Positions 6,614 through 62,748 of a DNA stretch of 64,000 nucleotides are shown here, piece by piece (position 1 is the first letter of the stretch; the number at the start of each line of letters is the position of its first letter). The DNA is taken from IMG/VR virus record IMGVR_UViG_3300013132_000043. One strand, 5' to 3'. Under the pieces are notes generated by a model, which was not told the origin of the DNA, searched no databases, and saw nothing but the letters and a program-made list of their open reading frames with translations. A program made the translations under genes and the position numbers. The stretch comes from an uncultured virus (IMG/VR IMGVR_UViG_3300013132_000043). Taxonomy: Duplodnaviria > Heunggongvirae > Uroviricota > Caudoviricetes.

Positions 6614-7393
6614 TTAGCTTAGTACATATTTTACATCGCGTTTATTTTTAAAGAAGAATTCTTTTTTAGCGGTCTCAAGCCAGAATTTAACCTCACCTTC
6701 TGACATTTTCATTGAGTTGTCATTTTTGTATAACCAAAATAATGAGTTTTCCCTGAAGTTAACATGTTGGTATCCCACTTTTGGTACTGTCATAACTACA
6801 ACATTGTTGTGTGTTAGTCTTAGAAGAAATTCATACCCAAAAGTTAATTTGATATTTTCTTTTAATTTACCATTTTCCTTAATAACAGAAGTTCTATAAA
6901 ATCCACCACTTATTTGAAAATTTTGGTAGTCGAGTAATGCTTCGTTATCTAAAATTCCCTGTTTCTCTGTAAACCCATATGCCCATGTAGATTCATTTGT
7001 ATAACTCAAGAACTTACCCTCCACATTGATGTCTTTAACAACAGGTAAAAACACATCCACATTAGGGTTTTCTTTACTATATGCATCCATAGACTTTAAC
7101 CATGTGGGTTTGAATTCATCGTCCACTTCTAAAATAGAAAACCATTCAGTATCACATTTGTCAATGCCAAGGTTTACTTGACTACAAAAATCTGTAGGGC
7201 CCTCATTTTCGATTATTTTAGATTCTATTTTATCTGAAACAACCTGAATGTTTGAAACCACTTTTTTAGGTCCTACAATTAGTAATTTAACGTCGTTTGA
7301 AAACTCCCCAACAGATTTTACCGAATTCTCAAACATTATTTTATGGTCATCATCCCATAAATGAATGGGTAGAATTATTGTTGTATTTTTCAT
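6614..7393 (-). CDS. Glycosyltransferase, GT-A fold (GT2-like)
   Basis: N-terminal TIILPI strand, N.G.....TEWFSILEVDDEF (DxD-like motif) and YEFLLRL motif. Confidence 0.8.
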   Translation of the reverse strand: MKNTTIILPIHLWDDDHKIMFENSVKSVGEFSNDVKLLIVGPKKVVSNIQVVSDKIESKIIENEGPTDFCSQVNLGIDKCDTEWFSILEVDDEFKPTWLKSMDAYSKENPNVDVFLPVVKDINVEGKFLSYTNESTWAYGFTEKQGILDNEALLDYQNFQISGGFYRTSVIKENGKLKENIKLTFGYEFLLRLTHNNVVVMTVPKVGYQHVNFRENSLFWLYKNDNSMKMSEGEVKFWLETAKKEFFFKNKRDVKYVLS

Positions 7394-8457
7394 GCTGTAA
7401 CCTCCTCTTTATTTAATTTTTCTAATGCTTTTTCAATAGTCGCAATTCTGTTAGTTTTGAAAGAATCAAATATTGCGATGATATTTTTCTTAGTAATTTC
7501 AGAATCATATGGTAAAAGAGTATCTTTCATTTTCTCTTTTACTTCATCAGATAACTCAACTCCCTCTAACCAAGCCATAACAAATTTCCCAAGGATTTCA
7601 GTAATCTTAGATTCATCATATGTCCACATTCCGTTTTCACCAATCCAATCTGGGTCAGTTTTTGGAATTTTACCAACTACCGGTACTCCGCACTTCATGG
7701 ACTCCAATGGGAATGTACCAAAAGTAGAGTCATCATCTACCCATACAGACACCATGCACTCGCTTAACACAGAAGGAAAATCTTCATATGTAATTTGATT
7801 CATGTCTTTGAAGTTAATCCATCTTAAATGAGGGTGTTTAATATAGAATTCAGAGATTAATTTCTTATTAATTGACCTGTCTCTACAAGAAATTGCAATT
7901 GTTGGTTTAGTTAATTTTGTGGATGGTACAAAATGGTCCCCAATCATTGGTGGGATTATGAAAACGTTGATATCTTTAAAATAATCATTGATGTATTCTT
8001 TAGTATTAACAGTGGTTGTTATTGCTTTATCAAATCCGTAATCACTCCACTTACTACCAATAGGTAATGTTTCAAATATTAGTTCTTTTTGTTGGACTAA
8101 CATTACTTTTACACATCTAATGTTTGATAGATTCTCCAATGCATTTGAGTAATATTCAGGAATTACAATGATATCCTCGATTTTTATTTCAACTCTATCG
8201 TCTTTGATGGTGACAACATCGATAGAGTCATATTTATCACCTAACCATCCTTTAACACCTGTGTAGGTTTTATCCTCCACTAATATTTTCACATTATTGC
8301 CGTTTTCTTTTAAGGTTAAAGCCATGTCATAGATATGTTTAATTCCGGCTCTTGGATTATTTTTTGTGTCATAAGTCAAAAAATAAATCACATGTTCATT
8401 TGAGTTTAAATTACTCAATGAAGATTCTAATTTTTCTAAGTTTTCTTTATTATTCAT
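7390..8457 (-). CDS. Glycosyltransferase, GT-B fold (GT4-like)
   Basis: AGIKHIYDMALTLKENG at the N-terminus and STFGTFPLESMKCGVPVVG at the C-terminus, the GT4 nucleotide-sugar binding signature. Confidence 0.8.
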   Translation of the reverse strand: MNNKENLEKLESSLSNLNSNEHVIYFLTYDTKNNPRAGIKHIYDMALTLKENGNNVKILVEDKTYTGVKGWLGDKYDSIDVVTIKDDRVEIKIEDIIVIPEYYSNALENLSNIRCVKVMLVQQKELIFETLPIGSKWSDYGFDKAITTTVNTKEYINDYFKDINVFIIPPMIGDHFVPSTKLTKPTIAISCRDRSINKKLISEFYIKHPHLRWINFKDMNQITYEDFPSVLSECMVSVWVDDDSTFGTFPLESMKCGVPVVGKIPKTDPDWIGENGMWTYDESKITEILGKFVMAWLEGVELSDEVKEKMKDTLLPYDSEITKKNIIAIFDSFKTNRIATIEKALEKLNKEEVTA

Positions 8458-10926: not shown

Positions 10927-10932
10927 AAAAAT

Positions 10933-11175: not shown

Positions 11176-12396
11176 TTAAATTATTGATTTGAAAAATTCT
11201 GTTCTATTTTTAGAAACATTTTTTAATGAATATCTGTCTTTGACAGTTTCGTAAAGTTTATTTCCTAAGTCTTCAATCATGTTAGGATTGTCGACTAATC
11301 TTTTCATGTGTTGGGACCATTGTTTGTGATTTTTACTCGGGGAAACTAATAAACAATTTCCTTTGTCATTAAACTTGCCACCATATTCTATTGCCCCAAT
11401 TAAATCAAGGGTATATGGTTGGGTTTCACTGGCAATTAATGCTTTTTTATGGAATCCAGCTTCAATCACTTTTAATTGTGATTTATTGGCATTAAATTCA
11501 CTTGGAACTAATGGTGCTAATGAAATATCAAAAAGATTGTAATTTGAAGCGTATTTGCTCACAGGTTGGGTCCATACTCTTCTATATCTTTTATTAGAAG
11601 AATCAAATTCTGTTTCAGTAAAAGTTAAGAGATAGTTTTTATAGTCCTCATCAACAAAACGATATTTGTCAGTAAAAATCTCTTCATACTTATACCATAC
11701 AGTTTCCATTGGTTGTATGGGTCGCGCTCTTTGTTCTTTTGTTATTGGGTTAATTTCAGTTACATTACCTCTTAAATCAAACCCACACAGAACAAATTGA
11801 GTATTATTAGTTTGACCAAGAACAGAAGAAATTCCTGATGACATTAAATCAATATCATGTAAATGCGTTGAGCCACCTAGCCACCCAAATCTTATTTTAT
11901 CTGATTCCGTTGGATTGGGTTGAAATTGAGTTTCATTTGGGTCCACTGCATTTGGAAATACAACTACGTTTTTAATCCCAACTTTTGAACGAATTGACTT
12001 TTCAAAAATTTCAGTAGTACAAGTTACCCAATCAGATAACTTCATCATTTCTATTTTCTTTCTTGGTATTTCGTTTGCTTTAATTTGGTGATACATTGGG
12101 TGTCTATGGTCAACAGCCCAATAGTCATCGGTGTCCATAACAACTTTAATCCCTTGTGATTTTAGTCTGTGAATCCTATCAAGATTTTTTTCATGTGACA
12201 AATGATGAATAAAACTATGGAAAACAACAATATCATAGTTTTTAAAAAATTCATCATTTTCATCGGCATTAAGACTAATGTCGACATGAAATTCATCTGA
12301 GTAATGTTCTGCAATATATTTAAATGGGTCTAATATTCTATATTTACCCACACCAAATTGGTCCGGTGGTATTGCTAATATTCTAATTTTTGACAT
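11176..12396 (-). CDS. Glycosyltransferase, GT-B fold
   Basis: GVGKYRI, MDTDDYW, RFGWLGGSTHLHD and DISLAPL..SEFNANKSQLKVIEAG, a pattern common in phage GT-B enzymes. Confidence 0.85.
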   Translation of the reverse strand: MSKIRILAIPPDQFGVGKYRILDPFKYIAEHYSDEFHVDISLNADENDEFFKNYDIVVFHSFIHHLSHEKNLDRIHRLKSQGIKVVMDTDDYWAVDHRHPMYHQIKANEIPRKKIEMMKLSDWVTCTTEIFEKSIRSKVGIKNVVVFPNAVDPNETQFQPNPTESDKIRFGWLGGSTHLHDIDLMSSGISSVLGQTNNTQFVLCGFDLRGNVTEINPITKEQRARPIQPMETVWYKYEEIFTDKYRFVDEDYKNYLLTFTETEFDSSNKRYRRVWTQPVSKYASNYNLFDISLAPLVPSEFNANKSQLKVIEAGFHKKALIASETQPYTLDLIGAIEYGGKFNDKGNCLLVSPSKNHKQWSQHMKRLVDNPNMIEDLGNKLYETVKDRYSLKNVSKNRTEFFKSII

Positions 12397-12450: not shown

Positions 12451-13014
12451 TCACTTGGATTTATTTACTCCAGTAATTTTACCCTTGAATATGGAATCGC
12501 CAACTTTTAAAACTAAATTTTCATTAATTGAAAGTGTCTGTTGGGCGGTTAATAATTGATTTAGCTTCTCATCCAATACTTTACGAACAGTATTCTCAAT
12601 TATGATTGCAATCTCTTTCATATCAACGTTTGATGATGAAGATTTTGATACGGATTGTTTTGGTTTAGATGTTACACCTTCAGCCTCCATTAATTTTTTT
12701 GTCTTGTTGACAAAATCTAAATCAAGTGAATCACTTAAACTAATTTGAGGAATTGGGTTGTCAATCATCGCCTTTTTAATTACGTCTGGTAATTTTGACT
12801 CCATAATCATTTTTGGATTATGTGAATATGTTTTTTGTTTTGGTGATGATTCGACAGCATCAGTAGATTTGATGTCTTCGGGATTTGACCTTAATAGTGT
12901 TTCATTGACGTGACCTCTTTCAAAGTTTCCCCCATCAACCTTATTCATTACTTTTTTGGCTTGAACCAATTTCTGCATTAATCCATTTTCTGATATTACT
13001 CCTTTTCCTGACAT
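12451..13014 (-). CDS. Hypothetical late protein
   Basis: 187 aa ORF with TATTTAT upstream (13034-13040). Confidence 0.7.
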   Translation of the reverse strand: MSGKGVISENGLMQKLVQAKKVMNKVDGGNFERGHVNETLLRSNPEDIKSTDAVESSPKQKTYSHNPKMIMESKLPDVIKKAMIDNPIPQISLSDSLDLDFVNKTKKLMEAEGVTSKPKQSVSKSSSSNVDMKEIAIIIENTVRKVLDEKLNQLLTAQQTLSINENLVLKVGDSIFKGKITGVNKSK

Positions 13015-16114: not shown

Positions 16115-18085
16115 ATGAACAGTGAGAATATACTTAAATTTATAGGGTCGAAGTTCGACCTAAAGCTAGATTCGTCAGAATTTTACGATTATGAGGTTGG
16201 TAAAACCGAAACAGACTACGATGAAGATGTTTTGGATTTTAATGCCCCGATAGTGTATGACTCATTAAAAATCAATACTACTGGACTTGTGGGGTTATCG
16301 TGTTCCAAAGCAACCATTATTTTACATGAAATAGATAATAGGGTAAACGACCCAAGTTACCCATATTCGGGATTTACATGGGCGTTACCATTTGTAACGT
16401 TTCACACTCACATGAACAACTTTGATACCATTTTGGACAATGATGTTTATGAGTTTATTGATAAAAACGAAAAAAAACACTATTTTAAAATTATAGGTTA
16501 TAATGGACAATCATTAAATCTATATTCTTTAAGTGTTACGGGATTTACAGGGGTAAAACTTGGATGTGTGGATAAGTTGGCCAACGCAAATAATTGTTGT
16601 CCAACAGACCCAATTCTAAATTGTAAACCGTGGGCATATCAATTCAATCATGGTGGCGGAGCAAATAAATGTGAATTTTTATTTGATAGAAGACCCGAAA
16701 AAGGTTGGACAATTGATATGGTATTCAATAGACAAGGTTTAACTTGGTCAAGTGGTGGTGTTTTTTATTATTTTGGAACAAGGGGTGATTCACCTGTATC
16801 AGATTATGCGGATAATAATTTATCTTTTTCATTTTCAACAGATGGGAGAATAGTTTGGAAATCTGTTCATTACTCTGGTAATTGTGGAAATTCAGGTTAT
16901 GAAAGTGGTTATTATACTTTAACAGGTAGTACACCACAACTATGTTTGAGCGGTACTTCACAAGATTTTAATATCACAATAACATTTGATAGATATAGAC
17001 ACTTATCAGATTGTAATGTTGAAAACGATGGTGGTTGGAACGATTTGATTCCGGGTGTTAAAACAATACCATACACCCCACCAACAGGAAGTTCTATCAC
17101 CTCAACTCAAACTACAATCTATACAGAATCAGAAGAATTAAGAAAAAAATGGGCGTTAGAAAGACATAGAAGATTGGGAGTTTTGAAGATTTATCTTAAT
17201 GGCCGGCCAATTTACAAATATGAAAATTTTGAAGAAATAGTACCATCAGAAAGAGGTGTTCAACCATTTATCCAATCTTGGGGTGGGGGTAGTCTTTATG
17301 GTGGAGGTGTGCACATTGGTGTGTGTTGTTTTGATATAAAGAGAGTAAAATACTTTCAAGAACCTTTAAATTTTGTACATGTAAGACATCATCACATAAC
17401 ACAAATAAGACCAAGTTATACAATTGTTGATTGTGTTGCAGGATGCTCTGACACGGTTACAGGTGTTGTATTAACACCTACTCCAACTCCAACACCAACG
17501 AGAACCGTTACCCCTACACCATCGGTAACTCCGGGTTTAACTGTTACACCAACCCCAACATTAACAAGGACCCCAACACTTACATCTACACCAACACTAA
17601 CCGCTAGTACAACAATTACTAGTACCCCTACAATAACACCAACAAGAACATCAACACCAACAGTCACTAGTACCCCAACCGCAACGCCAACAGTAACCCC
17701 CACAATAACTCCAACAACAACAACACCGACTCCAACGCCAACAGTTAGTGAAACCGGAAATGTAACACCAACACCATCGACTACGCCATCTCTTACTGCA
17801 ACATCTGAGACACCTACTCCAACACCAACACAACCTTGTTTTTGTGAAGAAAACGAAATAACAGTTACTTCTGGTACAGTAGCGGAATGGGATTATATTG
17901 ATTGTGATGGAATAACAATTACCGGAGATACTATAACTGCAGGTAATTCAGTCACAGTTTGCGCATGTTCTGGTTCAGTCAATGTAATATCATATTCTGG
18001 TAGTTTTTCCATTAACTTTGGTGCTCAGTGCTTGACTGCGACTCCTACTCCTACTCCAACACCAACGGAAACACCAACAGTGTAA
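16115..18085 (+). CDS. Virion structural protein with beta-sandwich (lectin/LamG-like) region, mucin-like Thr-Pro linker and Cys-rich tip
   Basis: GWTIDMVF...NNLSF....DGRI...LKIYLNGRP resembles ConA/LamG folds. It has about 120 aa of TPTPT repeats and TATTTAT upstream. Confidence 0.6.
17473..17835 (+). repeat. Low-complexity Thr-Pro coding repeat (ACN CCN)
   Basis: Encodes [20 protein letters not shown]... with degenerate third positions. A second short tract lies at about 18035-18080. Confidence 0.9.
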
Positions 18086-38961: not shown

Positions 38962-38962
38962 A

Positions 38963-39289: not shown

Positions 39290-42200
39290 ACTATCAAATA
39301 GTGAAAACATACTTGTAAAAGTTGACCAAAACAATCTCATATATGTTGACCCTAATAGTGTTGTAGATGTCGACGGAAACATACAACCAAGGGGATTAAA
39401 ACAAGAGAATTTGGTAATGTATGTTAATTTGGAAGCAGATTTGATTCCAAGAACAAGACTTGTTGCCCAAGACCAAGGAAGTACCTTAGTTAGTATTGCA
39501 AAAGGAAATTTAAACTTTTTAAAAAATCAAAGTGGAGATGGAAACTTTGATTCAACTTGGACAGAAGCATTTGTGGGAAATCCCGAATTAAATAAAGCTA
39601 ATGACTTTAAAATAAAAGATGATGCGTCATCTAAATTATTTAAAGACGACTATTTTATTAACGATAAATCAGGACAAAGTTTTGGTATTGATTCAATTAC
39701 GATAACAGTTAAGGGAGCGAATTTTGTACCTCAGGTTACAATTAACTTCATCGATGTTAGAGGTAAGACGTTGTTTGAATCCCCTGAGAACTCACCATAT
39801 AACGCATTTTTCCACATCCCGTGGCCAATATTTTATCTAACGGTAAAGGGGTATTATGGAAAGGCGATAAGATATAGGTTACATTTAATTAAGTTCAGTA
39901 CAAGATTTAGTGATACAACAGGAAACTTTGAAGTTTCAACAACTTTTGTTGGGTCAAATTATGTATACCTTAATGATATATCATTATCCGCGATTATCAA
40001 CTCACCATATATGTTCTTAACCGAAAAGGTTGAAAACAAAAAATTTAATGAGGAAACTGGTAGGTACCAAAAAACAATATCAAGAGGGTCAAGAGGATTT
40101 GCAATTTTAAACTCAATCTTTTCTCAATACAAACAGAAAGGTTTGGTGCCAAAGAATATGCCAACAAGAACAATTAAAGAATTAGGTTATTTGGCAGAAT
40201 CACTTGATAAAATTTTAGAGAAACAAATTTTTAATAATGTAGTCTCGATGGAGGTTTTATCAGGAGTAAGTGAAATTGAAAAAAGTATTGATGATTTTGA
40301 AAACAGTCTAAAAGCATGGGCTAATATAAATCTATCCAAAGAATACATAATCAAAACAAAAAAAGTTGCATTAAATAACACAGAGACAACAAGTGAGAAT
40401 TGGTATTATACATCTGAGTCAGATAAAACTAAATTAGATAAGATTACCGGTAAAGATAAAAATGGTACACTTGAAAAATTAATTGTTAACGGAACAGAAC
40501 TTATAAATAAAAATTTAAGTTTTGTTAATAGTAATATGAACAAAACAACCGCAGATTTCAAGAAGGTCACATTAAATAATGTAAAAACCATAAAAGAATA
40601 CTATGAAACTGATGGTAATAAAAAGGTTTTAATTGGTTTTGATAATTTAATAAATGATACACACGAAATAAGAAAAAGTTTTGAGGAACAAAGAAAGAAA
40701 CTTGAAGATGAGGTTGAAAGAAAAATGAATGAAATCATCAAAGACCCCTCTAAAGGTTTTGGATTTGAACCAACAATTAGAAACATATTCGCGGTACTTC
40801 TCGCAAATGCTGAAGTTTATATTAGATTAATGAAAGACGTTCATGATAGAGCGTTCGAAAATTCTAAAGCGAGAGCAAAACTCCTTTCAGGATTAACCGA
40901 TGAACAAAAGAGTAAAGAACCTGCAATATACCCTTGGCCTGAAGTTAAGAAACCAACATCTGCTGGAAAACAAAATGTTATAGCATACCCTGGCGACGCA
41001 GATTTAGTAAACAAACTAAAATCAAATAATAAAAATTTATGGCCTGAGGTTGACTTTGTTGAAGAATATTTTAAAATAGTTACAAATAGACTCGATACCA
41101 ACGTAAAAAATGAACCTACTGTTAGTGAAATAGATTACATTTTCGAAACAGACTTTGACGAAAACAAAATTGATGATATAAGTGGTATTGATGTAATGAA
41201 TGGTTCATCACCGTTTAGAGATAAAGTGTTTTCGTCTTTCATATATGAACTATATGAGAGAGTAAAATACATGACATTATTTGATTCATATACAAATGAT
41301 TTCTTGAGAATACTTGTCGAGGAAGAATTTGAAAATATATCAGAATCTATCAATGAAGATATTGACCTTGTTCAGTTAGTTAAGAAATTAAAGACAATTG
41401 ATGATTTAATTAGGGTTAGAACCGCGGTACCAATGGTCGATGAAAACAATAGACCAATATTAGATTCCGATGGTAAACCAAAAACGTCAAGAGAATATAG
41501 TGGTTACTTACCCGGTGTTTCTCCATACGATAGATTCCCTAATTTAAAAGACCACTTACCCACAGTTCCTTATCTAAAAGAAATTATTGAGTATCCTTTT
41601 GTTTTTGAAAAATACAAAAATGTATCAAAACCAACTAAATCATTTAAGAAGGATGAGTTAAATGCTGAATTGGTTAAGTATGTACCTGAACCATATAGAA
41701 AGAACATATACCCTTTTAACTCAAACCTTTATCTTGATTACCTTAACAAAACATCTTTTACTGATGATAATTTTAAATTTGAAGGAATATTAAGTATTAA
41801 TCCAAACCAAGGATTTGTTTGTTCACCAATCGATTCAAGTGCTTGGGTAAAGAGTAATTACAAGACTAATATGTTCCTTAATAAATTTAAGGTTGCAGAT
41901 AATTCAGTCAACATTGTTAATACACCATATTTCCATAAACAATTATTTTCAGATTTTAATAATAATGGAATTTATGGAAGATATGTCGGTTCGGCATATT
42001 TGTTATTAACCTCGTTACCATTTTTAGATTTAGAAGATAATATCACATTTAGTGGTAAAACAATATTGATGTCATCTCTTTTTAGAGAAATTTCTTCCAC
42101 ACATTTTATTCCCTATCATCTTATGTTAAAATGGGGAGCCATTTATCATAGATACAAAAAGAAAATAATAAATGGTACAGATATTTTAAGTGGATTTTTA

Positions 42201-57127: not shown

Positions 57128-60100
57128 ATGATTCAGAAGCATAGAATTTCCACAAATATTGGTAGAGACCAAAGAGTCACTGTCGAGTTAAAACAAGACT
57201 ATGACCTCTTGGAGATTTTGTCTCTAAAATTCACCCAAAGTGATGTCTATGCTTCGATGTGCTCAGATTATGGGGTTGTTGTTGGTAGGATATCAGTTAA
57301 TAACGGATTTGGAGTTCCTAATGCTAGAGTTTCTATCTTTATTCCCATAACGGATGAGGATAGTGAAGACCCCGTAATATCCGCATTATACCCATTTACT
57401 TCAGTAAACGATAAAGATGAAAAGGGTTATAGATATAACCTATTACCATCAAGGAAACAACACGGAGGACACGAACCAACAGGAACATTCCCCGACCAAA
57501 AAGATATTTTAACAAGAGAAGAGGTTCTTGAAGTTTACGAGAAATATTACAAATACACCGCAAAGACCAACGATGCGGGTGATTTCATGATATGGGGAAT
57601 ACCCACAGGTAATCAAACCATTCACGTTGATGTTGATTTATCTGACATAGGTTGTTTCTCACTTAGACCCGATGATTTTATTCGTCAAGGTATGGGTGTT
57701 GACCAATTTAAAAATGAATACACATTTAAAGCTTCAGAAGATATTGATTCATTGCCTCACATTGTTTCTTTTAATCAAACGATAGACGTTTTCCCGTTTT
57801 GGGGAAATGAAGATATATGTGAAATTGGAATAACAAGAACCGATTTTGATTTATCGAACAAGGGTGTAAAGATTGAACCTAAAGCGTATCTAATCGGAGG
57901 TACATATACCGATACAGGAAAATCTGCATTAAATAAAAATTGTGCTCCAAGAAGAAAAATGGGGCGTAAATGTGACCTAACAACAAAGACAGGTAAGATA
58001 GAGGCGATAAGATTTACAAGTCAAAAGGATGTTAAGTTAAGACCAATATTAGAGGAATTACCAATTAATGAGGACATAGACGAAGATGGTTCATTCATTG
58101 TTGCACTCCCAATGAACATGGATTATTTGTACACAAATGAATTCGGTGAAAATGAATATACAAATGACCCAAATAAAGGAATTCCAACATCATCATGTTA
58201 TAGATTTAGAATAAGTTTATCGGATGAGGGAATGGAAAAAATTAGAGTTAACGCAGACTACTTGGCACCAAACATTAGAGAATATGAAAATACAATCGGA
58301 AACCCATACGAAAAAGAAAAATCGTACGCCTTTTCTATTAATTTTGATGACTACCCACAACACGCGGTAGAAAATTTTATACTTAATTCTACTGATGGTT
58401 TTTATTATCCGAGAGATTATTTTTATCGAGTAACATATAACAAGGTTTATACTGTATCATCATTTCAAGGTTCATACTTTAAAGGCAATACATTTACAAA
58501 AGATAGATATCTTGGTTTAAAAGAGTTGGTACCTTCAGAAGAGGAAGATTGTGCTTCAAGTGCAGTAACCCCACCGGTAAATTTTGGATTTAAAAATTAT
58601 ACATTTCAATTACTAATTGCGGATGTTTTACTTTTATTTGAACACTTAATAAATTTATTCACATTTCTTTTAACAAATGCACTTGTAAACTTTTTACATG
58701 GTTTTGCGGAAGCCGTTGATTTCTTTCCAATAAAAAAATTATCGAAAACAATCCGTAAGGGGGCATATACAATACAGGATGCCACACAAAGAAAATTATA
58801 TTTAATAAATTATCCTGAATGTGAAGAATGTAATGGTGAAAACGAATTTGGTACATCTCAAGGAGGTGTATCTGAAATTGAATATTGCGAAGTTGGCACA
58901 ATAAGAATACATGGTTCGAGTGAGGAAACACCTAGAACGGGATTTACAGTATCAAATGATGTTTTTTTCCAAACGAACCCATATACAGGGTCACCCCAAC
59001 CATGTACAGGGGCAACGTTAATAGTGAACACCACCCAATGTGCAAGAGCACAGGATTTTGTTAATAATCAATCAAACTATGTTTTAACATATACCTCTAA
59101 TGGTATAACAAATATTATCCCATTAGGAAGTGGAGGTGTACAATTTAATATTGATATTATTTATGACCCAAATCCACCATATGATTGTGCAAGTTATGAT
59201 TTAACATTTGATGACCCCGGTGGATTCTTTAACGAATCAATTGACTATGATTGTGAAATTAGAGATAAAAATTCACCTGTAAATCCAGCATCAGCAATAA
59301 CGGCACAACTTGAATCTGAGTGTGATTTATATGATGTTCCATATAATGAAAGCATAGTTTCTAAATATTTTGTTGGTACGGGTAGAACACAATACAATCC
59401 GGGTTCTTTACCGGCAGGCGCAGACATCTCCGCAACTAGAATATCAGATAGAGATTATTTTGGATTACCAACTTCATATGAAGGTTTATCGTTCTCACCA
59501 AATACACCGGCAGACGGTCCTAACTCTGGTGGGTCCTACGCGTTTTCGGAATTTAGTAACGGAGTGTTTTATTTTATACCCGGAACACAAAGCGCCACTA
59601 GAATATTTTCAATTCTTAAAGAATACAGAAGAAGAAAAAGAGTTGGTACAATGTTCTGTGGAGGAATTGTTAATTATGGATTCTTAGATAACTGGTTAAG
59701 CGGTTCATTATATTTCTTTCAATTCAAAGCTAAAGTTAAATGGGATGACGAAAAGGCATTAGATTTAAATTATGGTCGTACAAATTACTGCGAAGATTTA
59801 GTTCTATATAAAGTAAAAGAAGAGACTACCGGTTTTCCTGTAAAAAGATTTTATTATCGTTCTACGTTATCAAACTCATCAGGAACATTCATTGGTGAAA
59901 CATATAATAGCACATTTAAAAGACTTGGTCATCCGACCACATTAGTTGATTTAGGACCAAGAGATGAATTTATTAGAGAAATATGTACTGACCCAACACT
60001 TGACCCAAATTGCTCGGTCGTAAGGTCTATTGGACCATCGTCATTTCAAAGTTTTGGAGAACTATTAGGTTTAGTTATAAATTATAGAATGGATACCGAA

Positions 60101-61006
60101 GACGATGGAAATTTTAGTCTTGATGAATTTTTCGATAACGATGGATTCCAAGATTCGGGATTTGGTAAAAAAGTTTTAGATGGAGATATATTACAATTGA
60201 TATCAATTAATAATGAGGTGGGTATTGAAGAATTCAATCTTCAAAGTCCAAAATACCTTGGTTATTCATATCAAATTCTTGACCCCGAAACTTATCCTGC
60301 GGTATTCCAGAACGGAAGCAACCCCGATGTTTGGGGACCAACACCGATAACATTTGATTTTGATGAGGATGGTCAAAGAGTTCGAGCTTGTCTAAATGAA
60401 CCTGGTAGATTAACAGAATCATCTCAAAACGTTCCATTCTTTTTATGGAATAAAGGCGGAACAGGTTTTGGACCATATGACAACGGCACTAAAGATGACC
60501 AATCGTGGGATTATGAAATTATCCAATCACAACCATTACAGGGTATGACATATGGATATACATTGACCGGTGGAACAAATGACCCATCAGACAAATACTT
60601 GTTATTACCAATGACTTATACATATAGTGGATTATCAATAACAGGTTTGAACGTAACAAATAGTGTTGAATTTGATGTTGTTGAAGCGTCAGTAACAGAT
60701 AACCACACATCATATGATACACAATACCCCGGCTTTACTTATTTATGGGTTACAGGTGGTACTATCACAACACCAACCGCGGGTATATTATATACGAGGT
60801 ACGGCACAGCGGGTACTTGGCACACGTTAAGTTGGAATAGCGGTATGGATTTTATCATTAGAAAAACAGAAGATTATTATTCGGGTTTTAAACAGATTTT
60901 ATCTACACCATTCCAATTTTATTTTGGATTAAGACCCGGCAATACTGGCGTTGATAAATTTATAAAAAGATTTGGTCCTTTAGGAGCATTTCCCGCATCT
61001 GAATAA
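57128..61006 (+). CDS. Large putative baseplate/tail structural protein
   Basis: N-terminal GVVVGRISVNNGFGVPNARVSIF...TN..GDFMIWGIP.G (carboxypeptidase-regulatory-like beta sandwich), an internal hydrophobic helix and TATTTAT upstream. Confidence 0.6.
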   Translation: MIQKHRISTNIGRDQRVTVELKQDYDLLEILSLKFTQSDVYASMCSDYGVVVGRISVNNGFGVPNARVSIFIPITDEDSEDPVISALYPFTSVNDKDEKGYRYNLLPSRKQHGGHEPTGTFPDQKDILTREEVLEVYEKYYKYTAKTNDAGDFMIWGIPTGNQTIHVDVDLSDIGCFSLRPDDFIRQGMGVDQFKNEYTFKASEDIDSLPHIVSFNQTIDVFPFWGNEDICEIGITRTDFDLSNKGVKIEPKAYLIGGTYTDTGKSALNKNCAPRRKMGRKCDLTTKTGKIEAIRFTSQKDVKLRPILEELPINEDIDEDGSFIVALPMNMDYLYTNEFGENEYTNDPNKGIPTSSCYRFRISLSDEGMEKIRVNADYLAPNIREYENTIGNPYEKEKSYAFSINFDDYPQHAVENFILNSTDGFYYPRDYFYRVTYNKVYTVSSFQGSYFKGNTFTKDRYLGLKELVPSEEEDCASSAVTPPVNFGFKNYTFQLLIADVLLLFEHLINLFTFLLTNALVNFLHGFAEAVDFFPIKKLSKTIRKGAYTIQDATQRKLYLINYPECEECNGENEFGTSQGGVSEIEYCEVGTIRIHGSSEETPRTGFTVSNDVFFQTNPYTGSPQPCTGATLIVNTTQCARAQDFVNNQSNYVLTYTSNGITNIIPLGSGGVQFNIDIIYDPNPPYDCASYDLTFDDPGGFFNESIDYDCEIRDKNSPVNPASAITAQLESECDLYDVPYNESIVSKYFVGTGRTQYNPGSLPAGADISATRISDRDYFGLPTSYEGLSFSPNTPADGPNSGGSYAFSEFSNGVFYFIPGTQSATRIFSILKEYRRRKRVGTMFCGGIVNYGFLDNWLSGSLYFFQFKAKVKWDDEKALDLNYGRTNYCEDLVLYKVKEETTGFPVKRFYYRSTLSNSSGTFIGETYNSTFKRLGHPTTLVDLGPRDEFIREICTDPTLDPNCSVVRSIGPSSFQSFGELLGLVINYRMDTEDDGNFSLDEFFDNDGFQDSGFGKKVLDGDILQLISINNEVGIEEFNLQSPKYLGYSYQILDPETYPAVFQNGSNPDVWGPTPITFDFDEDGQRVRACLNEPGRLTESSQNVPFFLWNKGGTGFGPYDNGTKDDQSWDYEIIQSQPLQGMTYGYTLTGGTNDPSDKYLLLPMTYTYSGLSITGLNVTNSVEFDVVEASVTDNHTSYDTQYPGFTYLWVTGGTITTPTAGILYTRYGTAGTWHTLSWNSGMDFIIRKTEDYYSGFKQILSTPFQFYFGLRPGNTGVDKFIKRFGPLGAFPASE

Positions 61007-62748
61007 TGGAAAAGAAAAGAGTCATATTACCAACTAAAAAATTCTTCGGAGCAATTAATGAAGATTTGAGTCTAAAAATAAATTTAGATGAAAGTAAAAA
61101 TTTGCTTAGAGAAGGTGATAGAACAATCATTCTTGACACATCAATACTTTTTGCAAAAGAGAGAAACGAAAGTCCACATTATAAAATACATGGAAAACTT
61201 AAAATGGTTTTCAGAAATTTGTATAGTGGAACTACGGGATATCAACCATTAAAGAAGAATTTATATTTAGTTTTTGATGATGGTAATCAGTTTGATGGGT
61301 TTTTACCATACAATGAATTTGCATTTTTAAGAGATGATGTTAAAAGAGAAACCAATGACCCTATTTCCACAAGTGTACTTTCAGCGTTTACTCAAAATAT
61401 AGTAGTAACTGGACAAACAGACCATGTTGAGGTTACACCAATAACAGCACCATTTCACAATTGGAATATTTGTTTATCATATATCTATTCGGGTGACCCA
61501 TCTCATCAAATGAAATATACATTGAGTGGTAATACTGTCTATAGTTTTACTGCTCAAGATGGAATACCATTTAGAGTTACAGAAGACAGGTCGTCATATT
61601 ATCTAACAAGTCCGGTTGAGCATGGTATTAGTAAGGGAGAATATGTTGTGATATCAGGAGGTACATTAAATAACACAGTACCACAGTCGGGAAGAACATT
61701 TTCGGTTGTTTCGGTTGGTAATGAAAAGTTTAATTCTGAAAATTATGTTTTAGAAATAAGCAAATCAGAAGTTCCATCAGGTACTACGTTGTCTACGGTT
61801 GTTCTTGGTAAAAGATGTATTAACAGAAACAGATTAACTGAAACAATTTCAACATATTATGTTCATAAACATAAAGTGTTAACCATGGGAGATGCCTTTA
61901 TTTTAGATAAGATTGGTTTTGAATCTTCAGTTTGGGAAAATGAAAAGAAATTAGTATTTGAAAATAGTGTTGGAGATAATGATGTATTGGTTGTAAGAAA
62001 CAGAATGGAATCATTGGTTTATGATTTTAAACAACCATTTACTTTAACAGGTCTAACAAATAATCTCGGATACCTACCAACTGATGTGTATGTGTCTATT
62101 GTTTTTAAAAACAAAAACGGATATTTTGATTATCCCTATAAAGTTGGTTATAAGTTTAATTTCCATGATACATGGATTGACCAACATTTTAGTGGAACAA
62201 CGTCGTTAGAAACATCGGTACCTTATGGTACGTTTACAAAATCAGGAAATACTTTTATTTCTGGTGGTACGATTACGACAGGTACAACATTAACGGGTGC
62301 ATTTATAGAATATAATAGGTCAGAATTAAAAGAAAGAGTTGTTAGTGAAGCATATCATAAGATTACATCACCAACAACAATATTCGACCATAACCAAGAT
62401 GACCCCACATCATATTCGGGAGCGTCGGAAAATAATAAATTTGGTATATACTATCAACCACATCATAGAGTGAAACTTAGGGAATTATCTCCTTATGTTG
62501 AGACATCTACAACAAATCAAATATATGGGTTACCACAAAATGCTAAGTATTTCTCAGAAGAGTCTTTATGGAAATGGAGAGATGTTTACGACCATGGGTT
62601 CATAGACCCAGAGGGATTTGGTACAAACTATCCTTACATTAACAATATTCATTATGTAAAAAATGATATTAATTTCTATTTACGTAATGAACAACAATAT
62701 ACCAATAAAAAAGATGGAAATTATAAAATAAAAAGATTTAAGTGTTAA
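61006..62748 (+). CDS. Putative virion structural protein
   Basis: 580 aa, beta-rich, coupled to the previous gene, with 11 [ST]GxT motifs. Confidence 0.6.
   Translation: MEKKRVILPTKKFFGAINEDLSLKINLDESKNLLREGDRTIILDTSILFAKERNESPHYKIHGKLKMVFRNLYSGTTGYQPLKKNLYLVFDDGNQFDGFLPYNEFAFLRDDVKRETNDPISTSVLSAFTQNIVVTGQTDHVEVTPITAPFHNWNICLSYIYSGDPSHQMKYTLSGNTVYSFTAQDGIPFRVTEDRSSYYLTSPVEHGISKGEYVVISGGTLNNTVPQSGRTFSVVSVGNEKFNSENYVLEISKSEVPSGTTLSTVVLGKRCINRNRLTETISTYYVHKHKVLTMGDAFILDKIGFESSVWENEKKLVFENSVGDNDVLVVRNRMESLVYDFKQPFTLTGLTNNLGYLPTDVYVSIVFKNKNGYFDYPYKVGYKFNFHDTWIDQHFSGTTSLETSVPYGTFTKSGNTFISGGTITTGTTLTGAFIEYNRSELKERVVSEAYHKITSPTTIFDHNQDDPTSYSGASENNKFGIYYQPHHRVKLRELSPYVETSTTNQIYGLPQNAKYFSEESLWKWRDVYDHGFIDPEGFGTNYPYINNIHYVKNDINFYLRNEQQYTNKKDGNYKIKRFKC

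What the first reader, a model, noticed from the sequence alone, without database searches (positions are those of the whole stretch)
6614..62748. Candidate phage-encoded virion glycosylation system with its own sequon, [S/T]-G-x-T
Seen: the tetrapeptide [ST]GxT, often after a hydrophobic residue, recurs in predicted outer virion proteins. I count 13 copies in the sheath (SGST, TGST, SGVT, SGNT, SGLT, SGGT, SGQT, TGNT, TGTT, SGKT, SGTT, TGTT, SGNT), all in the variable central region and none in the conserved termini. There are 11 in the 580-aa protein (e.g. KSGNTFISGGTITTGTTL) and several each in the 458, 649, 656, 1582, 1935, 1292 and 283-aa proteins. I count none in NrdA, NrdB, tail tube, tape measure or gp6, and one in PolB. 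A rough composition estimate gives about 1 per 1000 aa. The window also encodes three glycosyltransferases (6614-7393, 7390-8457, 11176-12396), two of them directly upstream of the late sigma gene. Established: some mycobacteriophages glycosylate capsid and tail proteins with their own GTs. The Bacteroidota host O-glycosylation sequon is different (D-[ST]-[AILVMT]). Inference: [ST]GxT is a dedicated modification site that coats the virion surface with glycans.
Basis: partly seen in the sequence, partly recalled or inferred. Interest (0 to 1): 0.85.

Follow-up and report, generated by a model that had tools for sequence, protein, structure and literature searches.

The report
Sequon-like Ser/Thr-Gly-x-Thr tag on phage tail
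The outer particle proteins of this uncultured lake jumbo phage carry the four-residue word Ser/Thr-Gly-x-Thr about six times too often, which looks like a tag read by the phage's own sugar-adding enzymes, but no attached sugar has been measured.

Summary
Ten flagged virion-module ORFs hold 57 copies against about 9.5 expected; the other 37 ORFs hold 7 against about 6.0. The excess survives whole-protein and 30-residue block shuffles. SG.T ranks first and TG.T third of all 'ab.c' patterns.

The word is sharp: only S/T at position 1, only G at 2, essentially only T at 4. It lies in proteins with no mutual similarity. Relatives keep the number of copies while the sites move, and the three residues are gained and lost together.

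T4, a phapecoctavirus, Mel-JY01 and a 484-kb phage lack the excess. An unrelated 735-kb phage that shares only a homologue of GT 11176-12396 has it.

Relatives carry soluble, exporter-free glycan islands, two PF11397 transferases and a 5,472-aa Thr/Pro protein.

The glycosylation reading is plausible (about 0.45) but has no chemical support. A lineage-specific structural turn is the main rival. The scan noted like motifs before on other DNA (e1-5709981, e1-5979999).

The parts
27639..30485 (+). Tail sheath, 948 aa; 13 [ST]GxT, all in residues 121-650 (outer, inserted domains)
   Evidence: Pfam Phage_sheath_1 and Phage_sheath_1C; phrog_23 at 9e-65. 13 vs 1.57 expected, 0 of 1000 shuffles. Residues 97-374 align best to outer domains of solved sheaths: 9ezm Z 7.3, 8jaj Z 5.7.
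61006..62748 (+). 580-aa protein of the baseplate module; 11 [ST]GxT
   Evidence: 11 vs 0.63 expected, 0 of 1000 shuffles. 53 distinct homologues average 11.1 copies at 49 different alignment columns. AF2 pLDDT 72.8. No family or fold match.
62750..63601 (+). 283-aa protein; 4 [ST]GxT
   Evidence: 4 vs 0.21 expected, 0 of 1000 shuffles.
63585..63998 (+). 3'-open ORF (138 aa seen); 2 [ST]GxT. Its 388-aa homologue in relative G005 has 11.
57128..61006 (+). 1292-aa protein after the gp25- and gp6-like genes; 5 [ST]GxT. Late-promoter-like TATTTATA at 57114-57121.
   Evidence: 5 vs 1.38 (p 0.012). Block shuffle p 0.04. Promoter motif.
39276..45083 (+). 1935-aa protein; 8 [ST]GxT
   Evidence: 8 vs 1.34, 0 of 1000 shuffles. 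Block shuffle p 5e-4.
34213..38961 (+). 1582-aa protein; 4 [ST]GxT (not significant alone)
   Evidence: 4 vs 1.37, p 0.052.
16115..18085 (+). 656-aa protein; 4 [ST]GxT (not significant alone). Carries a 142-aa Thr/Pro linker (aa 440-581, nt 17432-17857) between Cys-rich parts.
   Evidence: TATTTATT at 16101-16108.
3566..5515 (-). 649-aa protein; 3 [ST]GxT
   Evidence: 3 vs 0.23, p 0.001.
408..1784 (-). 458-aa protein; 3 [ST]GxT. Homologues have 7 copies in G005 and 5 in G007.
11176..12396 (-). Soluble GT-B glycosyltransferase; candidate reader of the motif
   Evidence: phrog_7162 at 1.5e-42. No TM helix. 69-76% identical in G002, G003 and G005. The only protein of 23 queries with a match in the 735-kb phage that shares the motif excess (33% identity, 1.6e-51). 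It lies 54 nt downstream of 12451-13014, with no terminator-like site between them.
12451..13014 (-). 187-aa unknown gene with late-promoter-like TATTTATA (13033-13040) just upstream; possibly co-transcribed with the GT
   Evidence: Co-transcription is inferred.
7390..8457 (-). Soluble GT-B-type glycosyltransferase, a core gene of the clade
   Evidence: Pfam hits are below cut-off. A profile of 25 homologues hits PDB 8xsg at 1.1e-9. 1382 homologues at E<=1e-5. No TM helix.
6614..7393 (-). GT2 (GT-A) glycosyltransferase; overlaps the preceding GT by 4 nt
   Evidence: PF00535, 29.2 bits against a 23.3 cut-off. 71-79% identical in G002, G003 and G005.
5914..6612 (-). gp55-like late sigma candidate, 1 nt downstream of the GT pair
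   Evidence: phrog_234 at 7.7e-4; Sigma70_r2 at 0.0036. Both are weak.

Best explanation
[ST]-G-x-T, usually after a hydrophobic residue, is a lineage-specific short linear tag on loops and turns of the outward-facing virion proteins. Those proteins are the sheath outer domains, baseplate periphery and fibres; in relatives the capsid region as well.

The tag is read as a unit by an enzyme. The most likely reader is a soluble phage glycosyltransferase that O-glycosylates Ser/Thr in the cytoplasm during assembly, after which other phage GTs extend the glycan. The best candidate for the initiating reader is the GT-B protein at 11176-12396. The GT2/GT-B pair at 6614-8457, and the glycan islands seen in relatives, would be elongating or sugar-making enzymes.

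Shown: the excess, its sharpness, its evolutionary behaviour, its distribution across lineages, and the presence of soluble GTs.

Inferred: that anything is attached, that it is a sugar, which residue accepts it, and which GT acts.
For: (1) Size and robustness of the excess. 57 vs 9.9 (sd 3.0) in 11 proteins, reached by 0 of 300 shuffles. It survives block shuffles. SG.T and TG.T are first and third in an unbiased scan.

(2) Sharp specificity.
- Given G.T, only S (30 vs 4.5) and T (27 vs 5.5) are enriched at position 1. N, D, A and G sit at expectation.
- Given [ST]G., only T is strongly enriched at position 4 (57 vs 10); S is mildly so (13 vs 8.5).
- G is required at position 2 (57 vs 10.0; A 10 vs 5.1). 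All.
- General beta-turn statistics, as I recall them, would also favour N and D.

(3) Convergence. There are no blastp hits at E<1e-3 among the 11 proteins, and no flank conservation beyond position -1 (hydrophobic in 74% against a 34% background).

(4) Number kept, sites moving.
- 116 sheath homologues average 9.1 copies (range 5-14). Single sites are kept in 3 to 115 of 116.
- 53 homologues of the 580-aa protein average 11.1 copies (range 4-16), at 49 columns.
- Eleven permuted or re-spaced versions of the word give 0.6-5.4 per sequence.

(5) The three residues co-occur beyond control triples matched on marginal frequencies: +0.50 and +0.53 log2, Wilcoxon 1.5e-5 and 3.8e-6.

(6) Not a general property of phage tails.
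- T4: 11 vs 10.9 and 8 vs 4.9.
- Phapecoctavirus Mt1B1_P17: 23 vs 21.6.
- 484-kb phage LR756508: 69 vs 49.7, best single protein p 0.01.
- Mel-JY01: 37 vs 27.7.

(7) A prediction that held. LR756501 (735 kb) was chosen only because it has a 33-35% identical homologue of GT 11176-12396, the sole match among 5 records. It shares no other of 23 query proteins at 1e-5. It has 12 non-low-complexity proteins with a strong excess, for example 1158 aa with 17 vs 1.2. Position 1 is S 75 vs 12 and T 85 vs 15 only.

(8) Deep relatives (30-46% identity) that keep the GT trio keep the excess: G008 has 18 vs 4.6.

(9) Capacity for cytoplasmic protein glycosylation in the clade.
- None of the three window GTs, nor any of the 15 genes of a 12-kb island in G005, has a TM helix. 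Pfam finds no Wzx, Wzy or initiating phosphotransferase.
- G005 and G004 carry two PF11397 'GlcNAc' transferases (3e-72 and 7e-48). This family rang in 0 of 14 control genomes.
- I recall PF11397 as CAZy GT60, the polypeptide alpha-GlcNAc transferases that start mucin-type O-glycans in protists (passage on GT60 in PMC8724618).
- G005 encodes a 5,472-aa Thr/Pro/Asn/Val repeat protein, and the window holds a 142-aa Thr/Pro linker.

(10) The host-type periplasmic sequon D[ST][AILVMT] is not enriched (22 vs 31.6), nor is N-x-S/T (103 vs 102.5).
Against: - No chemical or proteomic datum exists.
- Mt1B1_P17 has a 26%-identical homologue of the candidate GT inside a four-GT cluster, yet shows no excess.
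- Flavobacterium phage immuto has no homologue of that GT, yet shows a mild excess (40 vs 23.4) and its own SGS/SGT excess.
- In both AF2 models most sites lie at strand-to-turn boundaries with a hydrophobic residue before them. A structural element would look the same.
- In the deep relative G007, a 1461-aa fibre owes 68 copies to tandem repeats: 18 SGGT (in the printed stretch as R-x-SGGT) and 18 [ST]GHT (as L-[ST]-GHTH). I recall His-x-His as a structural fibre motif. So the word can be structural.
- The GT2/GT-B pair lies in one run with the putative late sigma gene and has no late-promoter-like motif.
- Thr/Pro linkers are a more conventional substrate for the clade's GTs.
- The independent co-occurrence rests on one lineage.
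- Glycan islands, PF11397 and the giant Thr/Pro gene were seen in relatives (74% sheath identity), not in this 64-kb window.
Confidence: 0.45

Rival explanations
1. Lineage-specific structural motif. Hydrophobic-[ST]-G-x-T is a favoured way to end one beta-strand, turn and start the next in the beta-rich folds these phages use. Nothing reads or modifies it, and the GTs serve another purpose.
For: Sites lie mostly at strand/loop boundaries. Sheath sites 234, 270 and 304 sit in hairpins; 580-aa sites 174 and 413 sit in hairpin loops; 135, 217 and 419 sit at strand ends. Position -1 is hydrophobic in 74%. G is the best-kept position at many sites. In G007 the word is part of tandem fibre repeats, including [ST]GHT followed by H. 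Residues of a turn can also be remodelled together, which would mimic the co-loss result.
Against: A general turn preference should appear in other phage tails, and it does not: T4 1.0x, P17 1.06x, LR756508 1.4x, Mel-JY01 1.3x. The residue specificity is sharper than I recall turn statistics to be: N and D at position 1, and V, I and S at position 4, are not or barely enriched. The proteins share no detectable homology. Contexts in the models differ: mid-strand, after helices, long loops. Sites turn over while the number is kept. An unrelated 735-kb phage that shares one GT shares the excess.
Confidence: 0.3
2. The phage does glycosylate something, but not this motif. The GTs act on the Thr/Pro mucin-like linkers of fibre proteins, on DNA, or on host envelope glycans. 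[ST]GxT would then serve another reader (another modification, a chaperone, a decoration protein) or be structural.
For: Thr/Pro linkers and a 5,472-aa Thr/Pro repeat protein exist in the clade. PF11397 enzymes, recalled as polypeptide GlcNAc transferases of mucin domains, occur in relatives. Viral GTs that hypermodify DNA are documented (search listings for 10.1101/2023.12.21.572611 and PMC13326640). The moraphage paper lists DNA, serotype conversion and virion as open options for its four core GT groups (PMC12619734, passages). P17 has the GT homologue without the motif.
Against: Against DNA: G005 encodes a true thymidylate synthase (TIGR03284, 305 bits against a 108 cut-off) and a dCMP deaminase. 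No hydroxymethylase, TET/JBP or C5-methylase family appeared among the 196 G005 ORFs scanned at E<=1e-5. Against host envelope glycans: none of the 15 island genes or 3 window GTs has a TM helix, and no flippase, polymerase or initiating phosphotransferase was found. The giant Thr/Pro protein has only 1 [ST]GxT, so the two features are separable but not exclusive. This rival leaves the motif itself unexplained.
Confidence: 0.2
3. Compositional or sampling artefact: the excess comes from S/T/G-rich segments, internal repeats or choosing the motif after seeing the data.
For: Three of the nine fully read flagged proteins are not significant alone.
Against: Block shuffles keep the excess. A scan of all 8000 patterns puts SG.T first. 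There are no internal or mutual blastp matches. The excess replicates in 116 and 53 homologues, in the 288-kb relative (10 proteins: 106 vs 12.5; the other 287: 78 vs 59.1) and in an unrelated phage.
Confidence: 0.02

Closest known systems
Chlorovirus PBCV-1 major capsid protein Vp54: virus-encoded, cytoplasmic glycosylation at atypical sequons (NTXT: NTGT, NTET, NTAT; and NIPG). Source: passages of PMC9614988.
   Same: A large dsDNA virus with its own soluble GTs and sugar-methylating enzymes. The acceptor sites form a virus-specific short motif that differs from the host's. The glycans sit on the particle surface.
   Different: PBCV-1 glycans are N-linked to Asn on one capsid protein, and they are proven by crystallography and mass spectrometry. 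Here the putative acceptor is Ser/Thr, the motif is spread over about ten unrelated tail and baseplate proteins, the host is a bacterium, and nothing has been measured.
Mycobacteriophage virion glycosylation (Freeman et al. 2023, Cell Host Microbe). The paper is not held; I know it only through the citing passage in PMC12619734.
   Same: Tailed phages encode GTs that put glycans on their own virion proteins.
   Different: According to that passage the glycans sit at the C-termini of the capsid and tail-tube subunits. They are not at a dispersed internal tetrapeptide, and the hosts are Actinobacteria.
HMW1C-type cytoplasmic N-glycosyltransferases of Haemophilus and Actinobacillus acting on NX(S/T) in large beta-rich adhesins. 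Recalled; the linkage is mentioned only in passing in PMC9614988.
   Same: A soluble cytoplasmic GT reads a short sequon at many sites in a large beta-rich surface protein before export or assembly.
   Different: It is a different enzyme family (GT41, recalled), makes an N-linkage, and is a cellular system. No homology was tested here.
'Moraphages': freshwater jumbo phages with predicted Bacteroidota hosts (PMC12619734; abstract and passages read).
   Same: Relative G005 shares several traits of that lineage: a genome near 300 kb, glutamine synthetase, a Clp-type chaperone, a sigma factor, several core GT groups, and a Bacteroidota signal (a T9SS C-terminal domain).
   Different: No sequence comparison with their genomes was made, so membership is only likely. 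In the passages I read, the paper notes GTs but names no acceptor motif. I did not open its supplements.
Earlier notes of this scan on other DNA: e1-5709981 ([S/T]-[G/A]-x-[T/S] in a ~300-kb phage), e1-5979999 (hydrophobic-S/T-G/A-x-T/S in a marine jumbo phage), and the [ST]-G-S and D-G-Y variants.
   Same: The same kind of observation and the same reading.
   Different: These are unchecked AI notes on other genomes, not independent evidence. The cross-lineage GT link, the co-loss test and the PF11397/Thr-Pro context were worked out here.

Membership tests
Virus-encoded virion protein glycosylation (PBCV-1 / mycobacteriophage type) | The virus encodes its own glycosyltransferases | tested here: met
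   PF00535 for 6614-7393 (29.2 bits, above 23.3). phrog_7162 at 1.5e-42 for 11176-12396. Profile hit to solved GT 8xsg at 1.1e-9 for 7390-8457.
Virus-encoded virion protein glycosylation (PBCV-1 / mycobacteriophage type) | Glycan covalently attached to virion proteins | not testable with these tools
   Needs glycoproteomics or glycan staining of virions or recombinant proteins.
Virus-encoded virion protein glycosylation (PBCV-1 / mycobacteriophage type) | Soluble machinery without lipid-carrier or export components | tested here: met
   No TM helix in the 3 window GTs or in the 15 genes of the G005 island at 153.7-165.8 kb. Pfam finds no flippase, polymerase or initiating phosphotransferase. 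The islands were seen in a relative, not in the window.
Glycosylation sequon (short linear acceptor motif) | Motif over-represented in substrates beyond composition and local composition | tested here: met
   57 vs 9.9, reached by 0 of 300 shuffles. Block shuffles. First-ranked in the unbiased scan.
Glycosylation sequon (short linear acceptor motif) | Acts as a unit independent of protein family and position (convergent gain, site turnover) | tested here: met
   No homology among the carrier proteins. 49 columns in 53 homologues with the count kept. Co-occurrence of the three residues beyond matched controls.
Glycosylation sequon (short linear acceptor motif) | Presence depends on the cognate transferase | tested here: inconclusive
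   With the GT and with the motif: this clade and LR756501. With a 26%-identical GT homologue but no motif: Mt1B1_P17. Without the GT and without the motif: LR756508, Mel-JY01; T4 has no excess and was not among the listed records holding the GT homologue. Without the GT, mild motif: immuto. There is only one independent positive lineage.
Glycosylation sequon (short linear acceptor motif) | Acceptor side chains are solvent-exposed on the assembled particle | tested here: inconclusive
   Sites fall in loops and turns of the AF2 models and in the sheath's outer domain. No coordinates were available to compute accessibility, and no assembly model exists.
Bacteroidota general O-glycosylation (sequon D-[ST]-[AILVMT]) | Substrates carry the D-[ST]-[AILVMT] sequon and pass through the periplasm | tested here: not met
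   D[ST][AILVMT] occurs 22 times against 31.6 expected in the 11 proteins. Virion assembly in the cytoplasm is established knowledge for tailed phages.
GT-B glycosyltransferases (Pfam Glycos_transf_1 / Glyco_transf_4) | Score above the Pfam gathering cut-off | tested here: not met
   7390-8457: 17.5 bits against 26.4. 11176-12396: 18.4 against 28.5. They work like GT-B enzymes by PHROG and PDB-profile evidence, but they are not members by Pfam's rule.
CAZy GT60 / PF11397 polypeptide GlcNAc transferases | PF11397 match above cut-off in this phage | tested here: inconclusive
   Met in relatives G005 and G004 (244 and 164 bits). Not found in the G002 and G003 fragments. The window does not cover that part of the genome. 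The link between PF11397 and GT60 is recalled.
T4 gp55-type late sigma factor (5914-6612) | Significant match to the family | tested here: inconclusive
   phrog_234 at 7.7e-4, Sigma70_r2 at 0.0036, NCBIfam sigma models at 0.004-0.009.

The most novel reading that the evidence does not exclude
A family of soluble GT-B transferases (phrog_7162-like; 3484 cluster representatives at E<=0.001) is a sequon-reading writer. In unrelated jumbo-phage lineages it starts O-glycans on [ST]-G-x-[TS] tags scattered over every outward-facing virion protein. The phage could then tune a glycan coat on sheath, baseplate, fibres and capsid simply by gaining and losing four-residue words. This would be a bacterial-virus counterpart of the evolving glycan shields of animal viruses, built entirely by viral enzymes in the cytoplasm.
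Probability: 0.4. Interest if true: 0.85.

Novelty: new variant of a known kind. Interest (0 to 1): 0.68.

Why it matters
Glycosylation of phage particles is proven only in a few mycobacteriophages, and virus-specific sequons only in chloroviruses. If the reading here holds, abundant freshwater jumbo phages of Bacteroidota coat their whole outer surface with glycans at a simple, readable tag.

- That would affect how these phages meet host receptors, defence systems, grazers and particles.
- It would give a rule for predicting modified sites from sequence.
- It would supply a soluble enzyme-plus-tag pair usable for site-directed glycosylation.

The hypothesis can be tested directly without culturing the phage, by co-expressing one domain with one to three GTs. 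If the motif turns out to be purely structural, it is still an unusually sharp lineage-specific turn signature that structure predictors and annotators could use.

Tried and rejected
- Whole genome of the window: none is held. I used relatives instead.
- Nucleotide-level cause: codons at the motif are mixed. The only oddity is more NCG codons at position 1 (15 of 55, against 11 of 93 other [ST]G). This is too weak to explain a protein-level pattern.
- T4-type late promoter TATAAATA: 14 matches against 9.8 expected, so not enriched. The reverse word TATTTATA/T is also not enriched in number (24 vs 25.1), but 14 of the 24 sit in sense orientation just upstream of genes.
- Fold searches:
  - The sheath model is poor outside residues 103-373 (mean pLDDT 45.5).
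  - VIA-align gave only sheath outer-domain matches at Z 7.3 and 5.7.
  - Foldseek on the 580-aa model gave no match at E<=1e-3.
- PDB sequence searches gave no hits for GT 11176-12396, GT2 6614-7393 or the G005 PF11397 protein.
- NCBIfam gave only sub-threshold hits for the GTs.
- DNA search of the GT pair against the phage collection: no match.
- Within-clade 'GT-less relative' test: not possible. G004 lacks the GTs only because its contig starts about 10 kb before the sheath.
- A conserved partner gene next to the GT shared between the window and LR756501: none found.
- G006 (38 kb) holds too few outer virion genes to be informative (6 vs 3.8).
- Literature: searches found no paper that describes an [ST]GxT or similar acceptor motif in phages. 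Freeman 2023 is not held. Supplements were not opened.
- Not used, because they cannot address a protein modification or an enzyme-substrate pair: complex prediction, the look-up of sequencing runs and read laying.

Full report
WHAT THE WINDOW IS

The window is a piece of an uncultured T4-like jumbo myovirus with about 33% G+C. It encodes the following:
- replication and nucleotide genes: PolB, a gp32-like protein, a DnaB-like helicase, NrdA/B, dUTPase and PhoH;
- tail and baseplate genes: a 948-aa sheath, a tube, a T4_baseplate protein, and gp25- and gp6-like wedge proteins;
- many large ORFs with no family match.

Hundreds of relatives exist in IMG/VR. 703 stretches encode a sheath relative, on contigs up to 333 kb. 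No whole genome is held for the window. I therefore used a 288-kb relative, G005, as a proxy for gene content outside the window. G005 is estimated 92% complete and has 74% sheath identity.

G005 carries glutamine synthetase, Clp-type chaperones, a sigma factor and a protein with a T9SS C-terminal sorting domain. These traits fit the freshwater, Bacteroidota-infecting 'moraphages' of PMC12619734 (abstract and passages read). I did not compare sequences with that paper's genomes.

- Over 47 ORFs there are 64 [ST]GxT against 15.5 expected from composition.
- The ten flagged ORFs hold 57 against about 9.5. The other 37 hold 7 against about 6.0. One of those 7 is the Walker A loop of the helicase.
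- In 1000 whole-protein shuffles the observed count was never reached for the sheath (13 vs 1.6), the 580-aa protein (11 vs 0.6), the 283-aa protein (4 vs 0.2) or the 1935-aa protein (8 vs 1.3).
- The 1582-aa (p 0.05) and 656-aa (p 0.14) proteins are not significant alone.

Shuffling only within 30-residue blocks controls for S/T/G-rich segments. The excess remains: 13 vs 2.3, 11 vs 0.9, 4 vs 0.24 and 8 vs 1.95. The 1292-aa protein is borderline (p 0.04).

The motif was chosen after looking at the data, so I scanned all 8000 patterns of the form a-b-any-c in 17 virion-module proteins. SG.T is first (30 vs 5.2, p 7e-14) and TG.T third (27 vs 6.1). Between them is PT.T, which comes from a Thr/Pro linker.

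One detail of the finding has no weight. The absence from the sheath's conserved termini is uninformative, because only 0.15 and 0.12 copies are expected there.

HOW SHARP THE WORD IS

All figures are unless stated.
- With G.T fixed, only S (30 vs 4.5) and T (27 vs 5.5) are enriched at position 1. N, D, A and G are at expectation.
- With [ST]G. fixed, T is enriched at position 4 (57 vs 10). S is only mildly enriched (13 vs 8.5), and V and I are not.
- The second residue must be G (57 vs 10.0; A 10 vs 5.1).
- The residue before the word is hydrophobic in 74% of sites, against a 34% background. No other flank position carries information.
- The x position is varied: T, N, S, L, G, F and others.
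- The 288-kb relative gives the same picture with larger numbers: SG.T 56 vs 9.6 and TG.T 67 vs 13.9 in 12 proteins.
- Codon use at the sites is mixed, so a DNA-level signal is unlikely.

WHERE IT SITS

The carrier proteins have no blastp similarity to each other or to themselves at E<1e-3. The word is therefore convergent, not inherited with a shared domain.

In G005 ten proteins (p<1e-3) hold 106 copies against 12.5 expected. The other 287 ORFs hold 78 against 59.1. The excess is concentrated in the capsid-region block (30-41 kb, 16 vs 2.4; the Gp23-type capsid protein itself has 4 vs 0.6) and the tail block (61-134 kb, 123 vs 38.9).

Two AlphaFold models were made.
- Sheath model. It is poor overall (pLDDT 45.5) but confident for residues 103-373, which hold 10 of the 13 sites. 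That part aligns best to outer domains of solved sheaths: 9ezm (Z 7.3, 101 residues, rmsd 3.2) and 8jaj (Z 5.7). These Z values are modest.
- 580-aa model. It has pLDDT 72.8 and pTM 0.76.
- Across both, sites occur in two-residue hairpins, a five-residue hairpin loop, strand ends, long loops, after short helices, and once in mid-strand.

They are thus mostly at strand/turn boundaries but do not form one structural element. I could not compute solvent accessibility because no coordinates are returned.

HOW IT EVOLVES

Sheath family. I used the 116 full-length homologues among the 120 listed proteins; 4 fragments were dropped. They are 59-100% identical over the central region. They carry 9.1 copies on average (range 5-14). 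Individual sites are kept in 3 to 115 of the 116.

580-aa family. From 79 loci, 74 ORFs aligned over more than 500 residues, giving 53 distinct sequences after dropping identical ones (51-100% identical). They carry 11.1 copies on average (range 4-16), against about 0.7 expected, spread over 49 alignment columns. Several columns absent from the window's protein are occupied in 12-26 relatives. The number is kept while the places move.

Eleven permuted or re-spaced versions of the word reach only 0.6-5.4 per sequence.

The three defining residues are present together more often than their separate frequencies predict. The excess exceeds that of control residue triples matched on the product of marginal frequencies, in every bin: mean excess +0.50 and +0.53 log2 units, Wilcoxon 1.5e-5 and 3.8e-6. 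My first, unmatched version of this test was biased; I rely on the matched one. This shows selection on the word as a unit. It does not say whether the unit is read or is structural.

IS IT JUST WHAT PHAGE TAILS LOOK LIKE? NO

- T4's structural region gives 11 vs 10.9, and its long fibres give 8 vs 4.9.
- Phapecoctavirus Mt1B1_P17 gives 23 vs 21.6.
- Microcystis phage Mel-JY01 gives 37 vs 27.7. The 484-kb uncultured phage LR756508, whose sheath is the nearest in the phage collection by coverage, gives 69 vs 49.7. The best single-protein p values are 0.006 and 0.01.
- In T4 no three-residue pattern reaches p<1e-4.
- Flavobacterium phage immuto is intermediate (40 vs 23.4). Its own top words are SGS and SGT.

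THE GLYCOSYLTRANSFERASES

- 6614-7393 passes Pfam GT2.
- 11176-12396 matches PHROG 7162 'glycosyltransferase' at 1.5e-42.
- 7390-8457 is below Pfam cut-offs. A profile of 25 homologues hits PDB 8xsg at 1.1e-9. A search listing ties 8xsg to the Actinobacillus minor glucoside-glucosyltransferase paper PMC12159676; I saw only the listing.
- None of the three has a predicted membrane helix.
- They are core genes. Homologues at 69-79% identity lie in the same place in the 3 of 3 relatives whose contig covers the region. 7390-8457 has 1382 homologues at E<=1e-5.

Transcription context.
- The GT-B/GT2 pair forms one tight run with the weakly supported gp55-like sigma gene, and it has no late-promoter-like word.
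- TATTTATA/T sits in sense orientation within about 50 nt upstream of the sheath, tube, 32264, 34213, 57128, 16115 and 408-1784 genes, among others.
- GT 11176-12396 lies 54 nt behind a gene that has this word, with no terminator-like site between them.
- Co-transcription is an inference.

A CROSS-LINEAGE PREDICTION

Homologues of GT 11176-12396 are rare in the phage collection: 140 of 50,697 records, nearly all of them E. coli and Klebsiella phages of about 150 kb. Among five records tested, only the 735-kb uncultured phage LR756501 has one.

By tblastn, that phage shares nothing else with this clade at E<1e-5. Only the GT matched out of 23 query proteins, which included the sheath, PolB, the other two GTs, eleven virion proteins and the PF11397 enzymes.

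I then looked at its proteins.
- After dropping 86 low-complexity ORFs out of 712, it has 243 copies against 87.6 expected.
- Twelve proteins show a strong excess, for example 1158 aa with 17 vs 1.2, and 1341 aa with 12 vs 0.9.
- The other 614 are near expectation (83 vs 60.7).
- Position 1 again accepts only S (75 vs 12) and T (85 vs 15). Position 4 accepts T (160 vs 27) and, here, also S (118 vs 22).
- Only 1 of the 6 such proteins I scanned has a PHROG label ('minor tail protein'). That they are virion proteins is therefore unproven.

This is one successful prediction. The phapecoctavirus is a failed one: its homologue is 26% identical and sits in a four-GT cluster, yet there is no excess.

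Three deep relatives were reached through 38-42% identical GT representatives. They keep the GT trio in synteny at 30-46% identity.
- G008 has 18 vs 4.6 overall; its sheath has 4 vs 0.8 and a 1099-aa protein has 6 vs 0.66.
- G007 has 5 vs 0.66 in the homologue of the 458-aa protein.
- G006 holds too few virion genes to judge.
- These three are not independent of the clade.

In G007 a 1461-aa fibre owes 68 copies to tandem repeats: 18 SGGT (in the printed stretch as R-x-SGGT) and 18 [ST]GHT (as L-[ST]-GHTH). I recall His-x-His as a structural fibre motif. So the word can also be a building block.

GLYCAN CAPACITY OF THE CLADE (SEEN IN RELATIVES, NOT IN THE WINDOW)

First island. G005 has a 12-kb island at 153.7-165.8 kb. 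It holds an epimerase/dehydratase, UDP-GlcNAc 2-epimerase, two FkbM methyltransferases and four GT2-type enzymes.

Second island. It lies at 265.4-279.4 kb. It holds two PF11397 'GlcNAc' transferases (3e-72 and 7e-48), a HAD enzyme, a TylF-type O-methyltransferase, a nucleotidyltransferase and a RuBisCO-like protein.

PF11397. It is also present in G004 and rang in none of 14 control genomes. I recall PF11397 as CAZy GT60. A passage in PMC8724618 describes GT60 as the polypeptide alpha-GlcNAc transferases that start mucin-type O-glycans on Ser/Thr-rich domains in protists. The Pfam-to-CAZy link comes from memory, not from a call.

No export machinery. None of the 15 genes of the first island has a membrane helix, and no flippase, polymerase or initiating phosphotransferase family was found.

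Mucin-like substrates. G005 encodes a 5,472-aa ORF made of T (2471), P (1095), N (792) and V (472) in TPTNTPTNTV-like repeats. Six further G005 proteins have Thr/Pro-rich stretches. The window's 656-aa protein has a 142-aa Thr/Pro linker.

DNA as an acceptor looks unlikely. G005 has a true thymidylate synthase and a dCMP deaminase. No hydroxymethylase, TET/JBP or C5-methylase family appeared among the 196 G005 ORFs scanned. ORFs under 120 aa, 14 ORFs that cross piece boundaries, and the genes already scanned in the window's own copy were left out.

WEIGHING THE READINGS

A general structural preference is excluded by the control phages. A lineage-specific structural habit remains possible and is my main rival (0.30). 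In its favour:
- the sites sit at strand/turn boundaries;
- a hydrophobic residue precedes them;
- one fibre uses the word in repeats.

Against it:
- the residue specificity is sharp;
- the carriers share no homology;
- the structural contexts are varied;
- sites turn over while the number is kept;
- the excess recurs in an unrelated phage that shares one GT.

I therefore rank 'enzyme-read tag, most probably an O-glycosylation site' first, at 0.45. A third reading (0.20) is that the GTs serve the Thr/Pro linkers or another target and the word has a different reader. Chance or composition is excluded for practical purposes.

The host's own O-glycosylation sequon is not involved: D[ST][AILVMT] occurs 22 times against 31.6 expected, and N-x-S/T occurs 103 times against 102.5.

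COMPARISON AND NOVELTY

Functionally the closest systems are:
- chlorovirus PBCV-1, with viral cytoplasmic GTs and the atypical sequon NTXT on the capsid protein (passages of PMC9614988);
- mycobacteriophage virion glycosylation, known to me here only through a citing passage.

Four literature searches found no paper describing an [ST]GxT-type acceptor motif in phages. In the passages I read, the moraphage paper lists four core GT groups and leaves their target open.

This scan has noted the same kind of motif on other DNA (e1-5709981, e1-5979999, and the [ST]-G-S and D-G-Y variants). It has also noted exporter-free glycan islands in related phages. Those are unchecked notes and add no independent evidence.

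I class the finding as a new variant of a known kind. It is unproven but directly testable.

Noticed in passing
window 17432-17857 (aa 440-581 of ORF 16115-18085): A 142-aa Thr/Pro-rich linker (TPTPTP..., T-x-TP) lies between Cys-rich segments of a 656-aa late-gene protein. It is a classic mucin-like candidate for O-glycosylation, and it is the source of the TPT/PTP signals in the pattern scan.
   Followed up: partly
relative G005 107949-124367 (L174-L175): An intact 5,472-aa ORF in the tail-fibre block is made almost wholly of TPTNTPTNTV-like repeats (T 2471, P 1095, N 792, V 472) with Cys-rich ends. It has only one [ST]GxT. By gene order it would lie about 8 kb beyond the window's right end.
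   Followed up: partly
relative G005 265375-279367 (L182): A second glycan island. It holds two PF11397 'GlcNAc' transferases, a HAD hydrolase, a TylF-type O-methyltransferase, a nucleotidyltransferase, a RuBisCO-like protein (type III/OiaX-like, below equivalog cut-offs) and about ten unknown genes. PF11397 rang in 0 of 14 control bacterial genomes.
   Followed up: partly
relative G005 153713-165822 (L176-L177): A 12-kb run of 15 soluble minus-strand genes. It includes an epimerase/dehydratase, UDP-GlcNAc 2-epimerase, two FkbM methyltransferases and four GT2-type transferases. There are no membrane or export components.
   Followed up: partly
window 398, 1795, 5897, 13033, 16076, 16101, 18086, 22581, 27592, 30731, 32253, 34192, 45112, 57114: TATTTATA/T lies in sense orientation just upstream of virion-module genes, within about 50 nt for most of them (the site at 45112 lies about 220 nt before the next gene). 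It is a candidate late promoter that reads as the reverse of T4's TATAAATA. The total count is not above chance (24 vs 25.1); the placement is what stands out.
   Followed up: partly
G007 35696-40081 (L279-L280): A 1461-aa partial fibre is built of tandem repeats of roughly 40 residues holding SGGT (18 copies) and [ST]GHT (18 copies), seen in the printed stretch as R-x-SGGT and L-[ST]-GHTH. I recall the His-x-His type as the iron-binding fibre motif of T4 gp37.
   Followed up: no
relative G005 6674-8590 (L169): A 638-aa protein ends in a T9SS C-terminal sorting domain (Por_Secre_tail, 3.2e-8). This points to a Bacteroidota host and to a phage protein exported by the host's type IX system.
   Followed up: no
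window motif sites, codon level: The Ser/Thr codon before the Gly ends in G more often inside the motif (15 of 55) than at other [ST]G dipeptides (11 of 93). Unexplained and weak.
   Followed up: no
L083 (Flavobacterium phage immuto, 110-160 kb): This cultured Bacteroidota phage has its own over-represented words in large proteins: SGS 25 vs 7.6, SGT 25 vs 8.9, GT.T 33 vs 11.9. It has no homologue of GT 11176-12396.
   Followed up: no
LR756501.1 (W06), e.g. 391944-395495: 86 of 712 ORFs of this 735-kb phage are low-complexity, with massive GTS/SGT/TSG and GPQ-type repeats (collagen-like by eye). They were excluded from the motif statistics.
   Followed up: no
window 10689-11175: A 488-nt gap without an ORF of 100 aa lies between the dUTPase gene and GT 11176-12396. 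In G005 and G006-G008 a conserved ~190-aa gene (188 aa in G005) lies beside the GT homologue. tblastn finds no trace of it in the window.
   Followed up: partly
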